Below are positions 41,501 through 45,200 of a stretch of DNA of 64,000 nucleotides, piece by piece. A program made the position numbers. Origin of the DNA: Pocillopora damicornis (lineage: Eukaryota); NCBI RefSeq assembly GCF_003704095.1, contig NW_020847344.1, positions 1 through 64,000 on the forward strand. Direction: 5' to 3'. Positions within the stretch are counted from its first letter, which is position 1. Each line of letters starts with the position of its first letter.

Positions 41501-42183
41501 TATGGGGCGATAAAACAGGTGCCGTATACATGTTGTTTGGTTATATATAGATTAACCGAAATCAAATCAAATTAAAGAATGCTTAACGTATCGTACAGTT
41601 TCCAACACTTAAGTTATTTTTTTGTATTTACAAATTTAAAGAATATAGGTTTTCCACTGTCCATCAGGCGCTCAAAGTTGTGCCGTTGCATCATTCCATC
41701 AAGCGCGTACTGCGTAGAATGGTAATGACGTCTTCTTGAGCCGCAGATTGAAGAGCATTCACATTTAGTTAATCTATTACATTTTAGTTATTAATCTCTA
41801 TACGCATCGTATATTTAATTCTGCTCTTCAATTGTTTTTGGCTGACTTTCGCCTCCAATAGCCTCTTCATGAGGAGCCACGAGTGACTGAACTTTTCTCA
41901 GAAATTTTAGGAACGTCGGTAGCTTAGCAACGATCTGCTCTGGTTTCCAGTCTCCTTCATCAAAAGCGTCATCCCATTTTTTACAATACAGATGAATGTC
42001 CGTCTTTTTCACACAAAATCGAAAAAAAATAAATAAGAAAAAAATTAAAGCCCGTAAGACTTCCTTTGACTCAAAACAGATGACTAAAGGACTTAAAATG
42101 TGGGATAGTCAATCACTAACGAAACAATCAAGCTAACTGGTTTCAAAGCTGACGTTTTAGGCGTTGTCCTTTCGTCAGGGCTA

Positions 42184-42214
<31 letters not shown>

Positions 42215-45200
42215 GAAACTCTTAACGGTGGCCAATTAACGCTATCATCACAGTTGATGATGATACCAAATTGACTCTCTGAATGACTGATTGACGAATT
42301 GAGTGACTGACTGGCCAACTGGCTAACTAGCTTAATGTTTTGCTAGAGGAATGGCTAGTAGACTAGCTGGCGGACTGGCTAGCGGACTGACTGGCGGACT
42401 TGCTGGCGTATTGGCTGACTGATGAACTGATAGGGTTGACTAATTGACTGACTGACAAGCTGCCTGACGTATTGGTTGGCAGACCGTGATTGTCTGAGTA
42501 GCTGATTAACAGACTGACAGACTGACCGACTGACCAACTTTCAAATTAGCTGACCAGCGGACTGACTGGCCAAATCAGAGTTCTACAGTCGCTTTAATTT
42601 AGATATACTGAATGACTGTTCAGTATCAACTGCAGACGAGTGACATGGATCATAACACAAACAGCGGTGTATGACTAACATGGACGAAGAGAAAGCATAG
42701 CTTGATTGTAGTGATACGTACCCTTACTTCGGTTTCGTCCAAACTCCATACATCATTGTGATCAATATTTATGTCTTTAGCTTGCTCTTTACAAACAGTC
42801 AAGGCAAACTGTTCTTCATCCGTTGTTTCGTACTGGTATGTTCTTCTCCGACTGCGACGGCAGTAAAAAAGTTCAAATCCATCTGGAAGCTCGGAGGTTG
42901 GTGGTAACTTCAGTTTACTTTGATCAATCTTCATGTTCATCAAATAACTTTCAAGAATTCTGTCTTCTTCTTCAGCTTCTGGTGTCTGCGGAATATTTGG
43001 ATCTTGACAAAAATAAAAAGACATACTTTTAACTGAGACAATGTGATGTTTACAATGTGATACTTAGTTCCTTCCGTTATTTTTTTTCAGTGTTACTCTC
43101 CGTAAAAACTAGTCCCTTACACAGTCGAGCGTTTTTGACTTCATGATTTTTCTTCTGAGGTTCAGAAGAATAAATCATGGAGTCAAAAACGCTACTCAGT
43201 GCTGTAAGCTCCATTCATTAATTATTTTTTTGGTCGGTAAAACTGATGGCAAATATCATCCAATATTTCGCTCTTCTTTCTTTTTTTCTACCTTTTTAAA
43301 TGTCATTCGCAGTAAGTTTTCCATCCGCAATTAAAAAACTTATGAAATTAAAAGTTAATGCCGCTGAGAGCTGCGAGAAGCTGTTTATTACGTCTTTCTT
43401 GTCATAATTCACAGACTCACATGTTCTTATCGACAAACGGCAGTCAAATCCCTTGGAAGGCATCAAAATGTCTGCTATCATTCTTTGTTGAAAGTGAGAA
43501 TAAATATGGAAGCATGGTTCGTTCGATGTTCTTCTGGTCTCGTCTTCGGTTAACACACGAGTTAAGATGTTTTTAACAGGAATAGAAGCATTGCGAGAGA
43601 ACATTAGCGAAGGAGCTGTAGCACCCTCGTCCTCAGAATGTTCCTCCACCAGCCATGCCTGGCATAAAGAGAGAAACCAGAAAATTTGGGGAATTAAAAA
43701 CTAATTCCAATCAGTCTTTATTCAGGGAAGTAGACAGGCTTCTCTAAAAACAAGTGACAGTTTTTCCGGTGTCTTAGTTCCTCAGCGATGGGAGACTTAT
43801 TCCTTTAATTAAGAGGCTAGAATATAATTTAAGAGATTTTAACAACATACAGTTAACGTCCCTAATAAGGACAAACTGTCCGGATTCCTTAGAGACCATA
43901 TCGTTTTCACTGAACCTTGCAGATATAAACGAGAATACCCCTCTTCATTTCCTATTTGGCGATACTCGAATGTGTTTGATCAGAAGTAAAAATTCTTTTT
44001 TCCAGAAAGGACAATCCAAGTCCAGCGTCAGATGATGAAGAGAATCCTACGATATATATGGATGTTCTTATCTATTCTATTTACAGATTTAAAATACCTC
44101 AACACCAATATCTCGGCAAGAAGGAGTGTAGAATGCAAAGTCATATCTGATATCTTCAGTTGATGTGAAAGATTCAAGGTCCTTCTCAATTGCCTCAACT
44201 TCCATTCTCAAGACGCCTTCCTTGAAGATTGGCTTCCAGCTATTGCCATCCGCAGATTCAACTTTTTCTTGGATCTCCTTCAGGGTAAAAGTGTCTTCCT
44301 CTTCATCTGCAGCAACAGAAAAACCAAAGAAATAAAATCTTAGATTGACACCTCCACATTCCACTTTAATGCGAGTTACAGAACCAGGCGTTTTCGTTAA
44401 TCTTCTAATCCGATTTAAGATACTTCATCAGAGATTTTTCGATCAATTCATATGCTCCTTGTCCCTCTGCGGTGTTGTCCCCCCCTTTCCCCATTTCTCA
44501 CCTTCATCAATCTTAGTTATATAGGCGTGACCGAAACGACTCTTCATTTCTATCTTAACCTTGCCCCCTTCCACCTCCTCTTTGTGAATTTGTTTTAAAA
44601 CTCCACGGATCTTTTCTTTCAGACTTTCCGTGTTAGCAAAATCATCTGTTTCCTGTTAAGAAACAAGATGATTGTATTAATGTCTTTTGTAATAATTGTT
44701 GGATGTTGCTTGTTTTATTGCTTGGGAGGTTCATTTTTGTTTAGACGTTCTTGTCGATTCCCCTCAGTTTAAAAGTCGTTGTGTGCTATGACTTCATTAA
44801 AAAATCAAGCTTTCCGAAGTTATGAGCAAGCAATATGTCATTTCTCCAAATAAAAGAAACGACTTTAAACGAACGGCTGGGTCGACTTTCGGCGAGGAGG
44901 CTCGGAAGATTCCATCATAAGCCTGGTTTCTAGAAATGTCATGACAAAGGCGGGACAAAATGTGTTGAGAGCAAATACAGAAATGGAGAATTTCTGTAGT
45001 TATTGTCTTGTTCTAGGGCTATAGTTCTTTTTCATGTGGAGGTTTACAGCGAACACGTAGGAGGGCTTGCAACATGATAGGTCGAAACCTTCAGTTACCT
45101 ACTCATCGTATGAAATTAGTAATGTTTATATGTAGTGAATGATGTAGTCTAAACTGTGGCTAAAATTGAATGATTGATTTTCTAAGCAGTAACATTCACA

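What the first reader, a model, noticed from the sequence alone, without database searches (positions are those of the whole stretch)
41986..44550. The young duplicate B' has replaced conserved putative pocket residues (W>K, H>R, H>C, H>Y)
Seen: the divergent paralogs A and B share DLWCHLG/DMWSHFG, THRR/YHRR and DIHLHC. B' is otherwise very close to B but reads EMKSRFG (44530-44550; TGG>AAG needs two substitutions), YCRR (42860-42862) and DIHLYC (41986-41988). Inference: these three separated sites probably line one pocket, and B' has switched ligand or catalytic specificity or become a decoy. Random decay seems less likely because all its internal exons and splice sites remain intact.
Basis: partly seen in the sequence, partly recalled or inferred. 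Interest (0 to 1): 0.7.

Follow-up and report, generated by a model that had tools for sequence, protein, structure and literature searches.

The report
Chimeric KH-gene duplicate lost conserved histidines
The middle gene of a three-gene tandem array of KH-domain proteins is a chimeric duplicate that kept its reading frame but lost three of four conserved histidines and a tryptophan, most likely disabling an old site rather than creating a new one.

Summary
The four replacements (W>K, H>R, H>C, H>Y) are at the stated coordinates, and paralogs A and B share the motifs. However, B' is neither "very close" to B nor "young". 60 of 341 residues differ in the five C-terminal exons, dS is 0.15-0.19 and intron divergence is 13%.

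B' is a chimera. A 7-8.5 kb tandem duplication joined an A-type first (KH) exon to the B body at about 46900.

Whole-history neutral decay is unlikely. All splice sites are kept, no stops occur, and 1 frameshifting indel is seen against 6.6 expected. Yet the C-terminal module evolves fast, with pairwise dN/dS about 0.5-0.66 against 0.17 in KH2. B' lost 3 of the 4 histidines shared by A and B (P=0.010, post hoc). As assembled, it has AGG where A has its initiator ATG.

The best reading is loss of an ancestral His-dependent site in a duplicate that was long kept open and may now be dying. The pocket idea could not be tested. Ordinary paralog divergence; modest interest.

The parts
46959..47225 (-). 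B' first coding exon (KH1'). It is A-type, not B-type. The open frame starts after a TAA at 47226-47228, and the donor GT is at 46957-46958.
   Evidence: Pfam KH_1 E=3.4e-14, 52.8 bits against a cut-off of 21.5. 84.6% DNA identity to 39675-40378 upstream of A. 80% protein identity to A KH1. dN/dS against A is 0.88.
47208..47210 (-). AGG codon in B' at the position of A's putative initiator ATG (39983-39985).
   Evidence: DNA alignment; sequences. The open frame 47225-46944 holds no Met codon.
47233..47235 (-). ATG in B' where A has an in-frame GTG (40007-40009). It lies 25 nt upstream of the AGG, so it is +1 out of frame. The cause is a run of five T (47216-47220) where A has four. This frame stops after 17 codons.
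   Evidence: read directly from the sequence.
46840..46902 (-). Duplication junction at about 46900, followed by a remnant of the 3' end of B's first exon with its donor.
   Evidence: Local alignments: the A-type match ends and the B-type match begins at the same point. tblastn of B KH1 residues 85-105 gives 90% identity.
46108..46326 (-). B' KH2 exon (B-type).
   Evidence: Pfam KH_1 E=1.5e-07, 31.5 bits. Splice sites kept. dN/dS against B is 0.17.
45296..45478 (-). B' exon E3, start of the unassigned C-terminal module. It has a 6-bp in-frame length difference from B.
44502..44652 (-). B' exon E4 with EMKSRFG (44530-44550), carrying D>E, W>K and H>R at positions i, i+2 and i+4.
   Evidence: The single-exon AF2 model of B's E4 (alignment A4; B is the first row) places residues 33-39, the DMWSHFG stretch, in a beta strand (block pLDDT 65-76).
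44098..44306 (-). B' exon E5.
   Evidence: dN/dS 0.66.
43421..43658 (-). B' exon E6.
   Evidence: dN/dS 0.58.
42728..43002 (-). B' exon E7 with FYCRR. H>C is at 42860-42862 (CAC>TGC). The Arg cluster RR..RRT is kept.
41815..42003 (-). B' last exon E8 with DIHLYC. H>Y is at 41986-41988. A 1-nt length difference from B at about 41841 changes the last ~10 codons. Stop codon at 41815-41817.
50281..55521 (-). Paralog B: ATG at 55519-55521, own KH1 exon, KH2, E3-E8. It keeps W and all four shared His. An N gap at 52148-52247 lies in an intron.
34666..39985 (-). Paralog A, the distant copy (23-50% identity to B per exon): ATG at 39983-39985, KH1, KH2, E3-E8.
39675..55358 (-). Two tandem copies of one segment (B body + intergenic DNA + A-type 5' region and first exon): 55358 down to 46901, and 46900 down to 39675.
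   Evidence: Self-blastn blocks of 82-86% identity. Junction.

Best explanation
A, B' and B are three tandem genes for proteins with two KH domains followed by a beta-rich module of about 400 residues that matches no described family.

Shown: a tandem duplication of 7-8.5 kb had one breakpoint inside B's first exon and the other just after A's first exon. It made B', which has an A-type 5' region and KH1 exon followed by the B-type KH2 exon and C-terminal exons.

Shown: since then B' has kept its frame and every splice site, which neutral decay over that time would rarely allow. Its C-terminal module changed quickly and lost three of the four histidines shared by A and B, a shared tryptophan, and Asp>Glu in the same motif. 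It kept the fold-type conserved residues and the Arg cluster.

Inferred: those His/Trp/Asp residues belonged to one His-dependent site, either metal-binding, catalytic or ligand-binding. Once one residue was lost, the others were no longer constrained. B' therefore became a site-dead paralog. It is either a still-made KH protein with an inert C-terminal module (decoy-like or regulatory) or a gene now sliding into pseudogene status. As assembled, it has no in-frame start codon for KH1.
For: Chimeric origin: self-similarity blocks, a seamless junction at about 46900 with a remnant of B's exon 1, and the A-type first exon.

Frame kept: AG/GT is retained at all checked exon borders. There are no stops in the seven checked B'-body exons. 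Introns show 30 indel events in 2517 aligned bp against 2 in 1451 exon bp. That predicts 6.6 frameshifting indels on one neutral lineage against 1 at most seen (P=0.01). In simulated neutral substitution, 4.7% of 20000 runs stay free of stops.

Fast C-terminal module: dN/dS is 0.49, 0.66, 0.58, 0.59 and 0.24 for E4-E8. My sum of those counts gives about 0.52. KH2 gives 0.17.

Direction: with A as outgroup there are 15 changes on B' and 8 on B at sites shared with A. B' changes sit in better conserved neighbourhoods (P=0.028).

Coupled loss: 3 of 4 shared His are lost (P=0.010). D, W and H of DMWSHFG lie at i, i+2 and i+4 of a predicted strand, so on one face (moderate confidence).

Retained residues: FKEGV, RYD, DCR, LP.GF, RR..RRT, TDIHL.C..WD and DW.P are invariant in all three copies.
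Against: No structure, family or homologs were available, so the claim that these residues form one site is inference only. The His test was chosen after seeing the data. The 15 against 8 excess is not significant (binomial P=0.21). Intron indel rates may overstate the neutral rate for exons; using only the twelve 1-2 bp intron indels, my own arithmetic gives 3.5 expected and P(<=1) of about 0.14. As assembled, B' has AGG for the initiator, a stop 5 codons upstream of it and only an out-of-frame ATG, so it may make no full-length protein at all. KH1 dN/dS against A is 0.88. There are no expression data.
Confidence: 0.45

Rival explanations
1. B' is, or has recently become, an unprocessed pseudogene. 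The replaced residues are simply part of relaxed, near-neutral change and imply no remaining function.
For: The initiator ATG of the A-type exon is AGG in B'. An in-frame TAA lies 5 codons upstream of it, and the only nearby ATG is +1 out of frame. KH1 dN/dS against A is 0.88. In B', sites shared by A and B change as often (15 of 100) as other sites differ (41 of 224; P=0.53). The body pairwise dN/dS of about 0.5 fits one constrained copy plus one nearly neutral copy.
Against: No stop, no frameshift in the body and no lost splice site over a divergence of 13%. This has a joint probability under whole-history neutrality below about 0.01, so any death must be recent. The loss is skewed to His. 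KH2 and E8 show dN/dS of 0.17 and 0.24.
Confidence: 0.3
2. One reading: positive selection reshaped a pocket, so B' binds a new ligand or has a new catalytic specificity.
For: Two of the four replacements need two nucleotide changes each, out of only 6 such codons among 337. Three changes fall on one face of one strand. The frame is kept. The chimeric 5' end could give B' a new expression pattern.
Against: No exon has dN/dS above 1. His>Arg/Cys/Tyr and Trp>Lys look like loss of a site, not tuning of one. No outgroup close enough for a branch-site test exists in the window. The start codon is missing as assembled.
Confidence: 0.15
3. B and B' are an assembly artefact: two haplotypes or mis-joined contigs placed in tandem.
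For: N gaps lie at 40535-40634, between the A 5' region and the B' 3' flank, and at 52148-52247, inside a B intron.
Against: Intron divergence of 13% with 30 indels is far above what I recall for allelic divergence. The A-type/B-type junction at about 46900 is continuous sequence without N. The structure is what one tandem duplication predicts.
Confidence: 0.05

Closest known systems
Pseudoenzymes / site-dead paralogs arising by gene duplication (PMC5106787, PMC10211241, PMC6549527: search listing and start of abstracts only)
   Same: A duplicate keeps the fold-type conserved residues and an open frame but lacks conserved polar residues (His, Trp, Asp) that its paralogs share. It sits in a small multigene array.
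   Different: It is not known that the parent domain is an enzyme at all. No family, fold or activity is assigned, and expression of B' is unknown.
Chimeric genes made by tandem duplication with breakpoints in two neighbouring genes (Drosophila yakuba work, PMC5460883: search listing and start of abstract only)
   Same: One duplication with breakpoints in two adjacent genes of the same orientation gives a middle gene with the 5' end of one and the body of the other. The junction is seen at about 46900.
   Different: Here the two parents are themselves distant paralogs with the same exon phases, so the chimera has the parental architecture. As assembled, the chimera lacks its start codon.
Type I KH-domain RNA-binding proteins (Pfam KH_1, PF00013)
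   Same: The two N-terminal exons of each gene match KH_1 above the curated cut-off, except A's KH2.
   Different: The C-terminal module of about 400 residues matches nothing in Pfam, NCBIfam, PADLOC or the PDB when searched exon by exon. KH2 of B and B' has GKG[YH] in place of a GXXG loop.
Unprocessed (duplicated) pseudogenes
   Same: A tandem duplicate with raised dN/dS and a lost initiator codon as assembled.
   Different: No stop, frameshift or splice defect in about 1.45 kb of coding exons, despite 13% neutral divergence.

Membership tests
KH domain, type I (Pfam PF00013) | Profile match above the curated gathering score | tested here: met
   B' KH1' scores 52.8 bits and KH2 31.5 bits against a cut-off of 21.5. 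B KH1 scores 58.1 bits. A KH2 scores only 17.4 bits, below the cut-off.
KH domain, type I (Pfam PF00013) | GXXG loop (feature recalled from general knowledge) | tested here: inconclusive
   KH1' reads IGRKG, which has the loop. KH2 reads IGKGH in B' and IGKGY in B, which lacks the second Gly at the expected spacing.
Any described family for the C-terminal module (Pfam-A, NCBIfam, PADLOC, PDB sequences) | Significant profile or sequence match | tested here: not met
   Tested exon by exon only. Pfam: 0 of 6 B' C-terminal pieces and 0 of 10 A/B pieces matched above cut-off; the best were YkuI_C at E=0.14 and DUF1400 at E=0.049. NCBIfam: 0 of 10 above cut-off. PADLOC: 0 of 10. PDB: five exon profiles, best E=0.2. 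A full-length search might still find a family; the joined step was left out.
Pseudoenzyme | Fold homologous to an active enzyme family | not testable with these tools
   No family was found. No joined model was folded. Single-exon models reach pLDDT 54.8 and 67.4.
Pseudoenzyme | Lacks residues that are conserved and catalytic in active relatives | tested here: inconclusive
   3 of 4 His shared by A and B, plus one shared Trp, are replaced in B'. A catalytic role for them is not known.
Pseudoenzyme | The protein is made | not testable with these tools
   No expression data. There is no in-frame ATG in the first exon as assembled.
Chimeric gene by tandem duplication | Two adjacent parent genes in the same orientation, with a junction that joins the 5' part of one to the body of the other | tested here: met
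Chimeric gene by tandem duplication | Chimeric reading frame open from a start codon | tested here: not met
   The intron phases fit: the KH1' donor is phase 0 and the KH2 acceptor is phase 0. But the initiator is AGG and the upstream ATG is out of frame.
Unprocessed pseudogene | Disabling stop, frameshift or splice-site loss in the body | tested here: not met
   None in KH2 or E3-E8. The only frameshifting difference is 1 nt in the last ~10 codons.
Unprocessed pseudogene | dN/dS near 1 | tested here: inconclusive
   The pairwise values of 0.17-0.66 mix both lineages. KH1' against A gives 0.88.

The most novel reading that the evidence does not exclude
The beta-rich module of about 400 residues shared by A, B and B' is an undescribed His-dependent (metal-binding or catalytic) RNA-acting domain fused to KH domains. 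On this reading, B' is a natural active-site-dead copy that exon-shuffling tandem duplication placed under the other paralog's promoter, and it acts as a decoy or regulator of A/B substrates.
Probability: 0.12. Interest if true: 0.55.

Novelty: new member of a known kind. Interest (0 to 1): 0.3.

Why it matters
If the His/Trp/Asp residues do form one site, B' marks which residues of an unassigned KH-linked domain are functional. That gives a ready list of positions to mutate in B. The locus is also a clean example of one tandem duplication making a chimeric gene from two distant paralogs. Otherwise this is ordinary divergence of a duplicate, with little wider consequence.

Tried and rejected
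- **Family searches, exon by exon.** All were negative or below threshold: Pfam, NCBIfam, PADLOC, and PDB sequence profiles for E4-E8.
- **ESM Atlas.** With E7 there was no usable hit. With E8 the best score was 0.82, to 3keto-disac_hyd clusters. That is a range shuffled proteins reach a third of the time, so it was rejected.
- **AF2 on single exons.** E7 gave pLDDT 54.8 and E4 gave 67.4. Both are too weak for fold search, which was therefore not run. Only the strand assignment of E4 residues 33-39 was used, and only as weak support.
- **Scan of bacterial and archaeal genomes with the E8 alignment.** 43 stretches matched the pattern and 1 passed. That locus (L001) matches only the seeded peptide KWDDAFDEGD and no other exon, so it is a chance hit.
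- **Other paralogs in the window.** None found beyond A, B' and B.
- **Ideas from memory.** The motifs might recall a histidine triad, 2H phosphoesterase, HKD, metallophosphatase or triphosphate-tunnel site. None was supported by any profile search and all were dropped.
- **Complex prediction.** Not used, because it gives no residue geometry and no binding claim is made here.
- **Joined models.** A spliced (joined) protein was not built, searched or folded.
- **Literature.** One search for a KH protein with an uncharacterised C-terminal domain gave nothing relevant among its 10 listed papers.
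Full report
**What is there**

The finding lies in the middle gene of three tandem paralogs on the minus strand. A motif scan of all six frames found the motifs as follows:
- A: DLWCHLG at 37777-37797, THRR at 35405-35416, DIHLHC at 34804-34821.
- B': EMKSRFG at 44530-44550, YCRR at 42854-42865, DIHLYC at 41983-42000.
- B: DMWSHFG at 52752-52772, YHRR at 51148-51159, DIHLHC at 50419-50436.

The loose four-residue THRR/YHRR pattern also matched two unrelated ORFs, at 30803-30814 and 24809-24820. The sequence read agrees.

The codon changes from B to B' are TGG>AAG, CAT>CGT, CAC>TGC and CAT>TAT, plus GAC>GAA for the Asp of the first motif. 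The window holds 461 N in five runs. None was filled, and alignment columns with N were skipped.

**Gene models**

I did not build, search or fold a joined (spliced) protein. Everything below was done exon by exon, and only counts were summed.

B' exons on the minus strand:

| Exon | Coordinates |
|---|---|
| KH1' | 47225-46959 |
| KH2 | 46326-46108 |
| E3 | 45478-45296 |
| E4 | 44652-44502 |
| E5 | 44306-44098 |
| E6 | 43658-43421 |
| E7 | 43002-42728 |
| E8 | 42003-41815 (stop included) |

B has the same exon lengths for E4-E7. Every AG acceptor and GT donor is kept in both copies. Pfam finds KH_1 in the first two exons: B' scores 52.8 and 31.5 bits, and B KH1 scores 58.1 bits, all against a cut-off of 21.5.

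**The C-terminal module is unassigned**

The module covers E3-E8, about 400 residues, and looks beta-rich by pattern. Searched exon by exon, it matched nothing:
- Pfam: 0 of 6 B' C-terminal pieces and 0 of 10 A/B pieces above cut-off.
- NCBIfam: 0 of 10 above cut-off.
- PADLOC: 0 of 10.
- PDB: five exon profiles, best E=0.2.
- ESM Atlas: no usable hit, and a best score of 0.82.

A scan of bacterial and archaeal genomes gave one chance hit, L001. No homolog outside the window was seen, and a full-length search might still place the domain in a family.

**B' is a chimera**

Self-comparison shows these matches:

| B' side | Matches | DNA identity |
|---|---|---|
| 40638-46900 | 48472-55358 (B side) | 82-86%, introns included |
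| 46900-47604 | 39675-40378 (the region upstream of A, with A's first KH exon) | 84.6% |

Local alignment places the switch at about 46900, in continuous sequence. Just downstream lies a remnant of the last ~17 codons of B's first exon with its donor.

This is what one tandem duplication of [B body + intergenic DNA + A's 5' region and first exon] predicts. The two copies run from 55358 down to 46901 and from 46900 down to 39675. B and A keep the parental structure. B' gets an A-type promoter region and KH1 exon, followed by the B-type KH2 exon and C-terminal exons. Both the donor and the acceptor are phase 0, so the chimera is in frame.

**Age and rate**

B' is not very close to B.
- Amino acids: 60 of 341 residues differ in E4-E8, which is 80-87% identity per exon.
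- Neutral divergence: intron divergence is 0.130 (327 of 2517 aligned sites) and summed dS is 0.186.

Pairwise dN/dS per exon:

| Exon | dN/dS |
|---|---|
| KH2 | 0.17 |
| E3 | 0.48 |
| E4 | 0.49 |
| E5 | 0.66 |
| E6 | 0.58 |
| E7 | 0.59 |
| E8 | 0.24 |

Summing the E4-E8 counts myself gives about 0.52. The A-type KH1 exon of B' against A gives 0.88, from 6 synonymous and 19 non-synonymous differences.

**Which copy changed**

A served as outgroup at the protein level across 324 aligned positions:

| Pattern | Positions |
|---|---|
| A=B=B' | 85 |
| A=B, B' differs | 15 |
| A=B', B differs | 8 |
| B=B', A differs | 183 |
| Other | 33 |

A second alignment with trimmed A pieces again gave 15 and 8.
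- The excess on B' is not significant (binomial P=0.21).
- In B', sites where A=B changed as often (15 of 100) as the remaining sites differ between B and B' (41 of 224; Fisher P=0.53). So conserved positions are not visibly protected in B'.
- B' changes fall in better conserved neighbourhoods than B changes: a mean of 2.2 against 1.1 conserved neighbours (one-sided P=0.028).
- Of the four histidines shared by A and B, B' lost three and B lost none (hypergeometric P=0.010). I chose this test after seeing the pattern.
- W>K and H>C are two of only 6 double-hit codons among 337.
- In DMWSHFG the changed residues are D, W and H at i, i+2 and i+4. A single-exon AF2 model of B's E4 puts residues 33-39 in a strand (block pLDDT 65-76), which would place the three on one face. 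This is weak support only.
- Conserved blocks that look structural, and the Arg cluster (RR..RRT), are unchanged in B'.

**Decay or maintenance**

- Indels: introns carry 30 indel events in 2517 aligned bp. The exons carry 2 in 1451 bp: a 6-bp in-frame one in E3, and a 1-nt one at about 41841 that alters only the last ~10 codons. If B' had been neutral since the duplication, 6.6 frameshifting indels would be expected (P(<=1)=0.01). Counting only the twelve 1-2 bp intron indels, my own arithmetic gives 3.5 expected and P(<=1) of about 0.14.
- Stops: neutral substitution at half the intron divergence leaves all six simulated B-body exons (E3 was not in the set) free of stops in 4.7% of 20000 runs. 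At a quarter of the divergence the figure is 22%.

Against this, A's first Met codon lies in a good start context (ATAATGG, 39983-39985). The matching codon in B' is AGG (47208-47210). A TAA lies 5 codons upstream in the same frame. The only nearby ATG (47233-47235, where A has an in-frame GTG) is +1 out of frame, because B' has five T where A has four. B has its own ATG at 55519-55521. As assembled, then, B' cannot make KH1 from an AUG. This could be a recent disabling event, a homopolymer error in the assembly that hides a shifted start, or use of an internal Met.

**Interpretation**

The best reading (confidence 0.45) is loss of an ancestral His-dependent site in a chimeric duplicate that stayed open for a long time. 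The result is a site-dead paralog that may now be dying.

Rivals:
- A plain recent pseudogene (0.3).
It has no positive support, because no exon has dN/dS above 1 and the replacements look like loss of a site.
- An assembly artefact (0.05), which the 13% divergence and the N-free junction make unlikely.

That the sites line one pocket remains untested.

**Comparison with what is known**

The case resembles pseudoenzymes that arise by duplication within multigene families. It also resembles chimeric genes made by tandem duplication. For the papers behind both comparisons I saw only the search listings and the starts of the abstracts (PMC5106787, PMC10211241 and PMC6549527; PMC5460883). Membership in the pseudoenzyme class cannot be claimed, because the parent domain is not known to be an enzyme.

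This is a new member of known kinds of event. Interest is modest (0.3).

Noticed in passing
window 46840-46960 (-): Seamless junction of A-type and B-type sequence at about 46900, followed by a remnant of the last ~17 codons of B's first exon with its GT donor. This marks one breakpoint inside B's exon 1 and the other about 55 nt into A's intron 1.
   Followed up: yes
window 47208-47235 (-) against 39983-40009 (-): Possible start-codon turnover. A has GTG ... ATG in one frame. B' has ATG ... AGG, but one extra T (T5 at 47216-47220) puts the new ATG out of frame.
   Followed up: partly
window 44593-44595 (-): A second Trp>Lys in B' exon E4 (TGG>AAA), also a two-step change. A has Arg at this position, so it is not conserved.
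   Followed up: partly
window 41841 (-) against about 50281-50300 (-): A 1-nt length difference gives B and B' different last ~10 codons. B stops earlier. Both copies keep a TAA at the aligned site of the B' stop.
   Followed up: partly
window 46108-46326 and 54291-54500 (-): The KH2 domain of B' and B reads IGKGH / IGKGY where a KH GXXG loop is expected. A's KH2 reads RGPDG and scores below the Pfam cut-off (17.4 bits).
   Followed up: no
window 42300-42560 and 50660-50945 (-): GTCA/GCCA-rich low-complexity tract in the last intron of both B' and B. It gives long spurious ORFs rich in Ser and Gln.
   Followed up: no
window 4791-5004, 5397-5610 (inverted), 32590-32803, 60021-60223: A dispersed repeat of about 210 bp in four copies at 73-88% identity, one of them inverted nearby. 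It may be a small mobile element.
   Followed up: no
window 47647-47715, 47795-47863, 51328-51397: A 69-70 bp element repeated twice upstream of B' (94% identity), with another copy in a B intron (93%).
   Followed up: no
window 4129-6424 (+), 9520-10191 (+), 31580-32410 (+): Neighbouring genes: exons matching Exo_endo_phos (below the cut-off, E=5.9e-05 and 7.3e-04), a Shavenoid isoform B N-terminal domain (33.2 bits), and an MFS / acetyl-CoA-transporter-like protein. These indicate an invertebrate animal genome, not human.
   Followed up: partly
window 26291-26898: A run that reads as poly-His on the minus strand and poly-Asp on the plus strand, so a simple trinucleotide repeat.
   Followed up: no
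L001 2001-2060: The only hit of the prokaryote genome scan matches just the seeded peptide KWDDAFDEGD and no other exon. It is a chance match, not a relative.
   Followed up: yes
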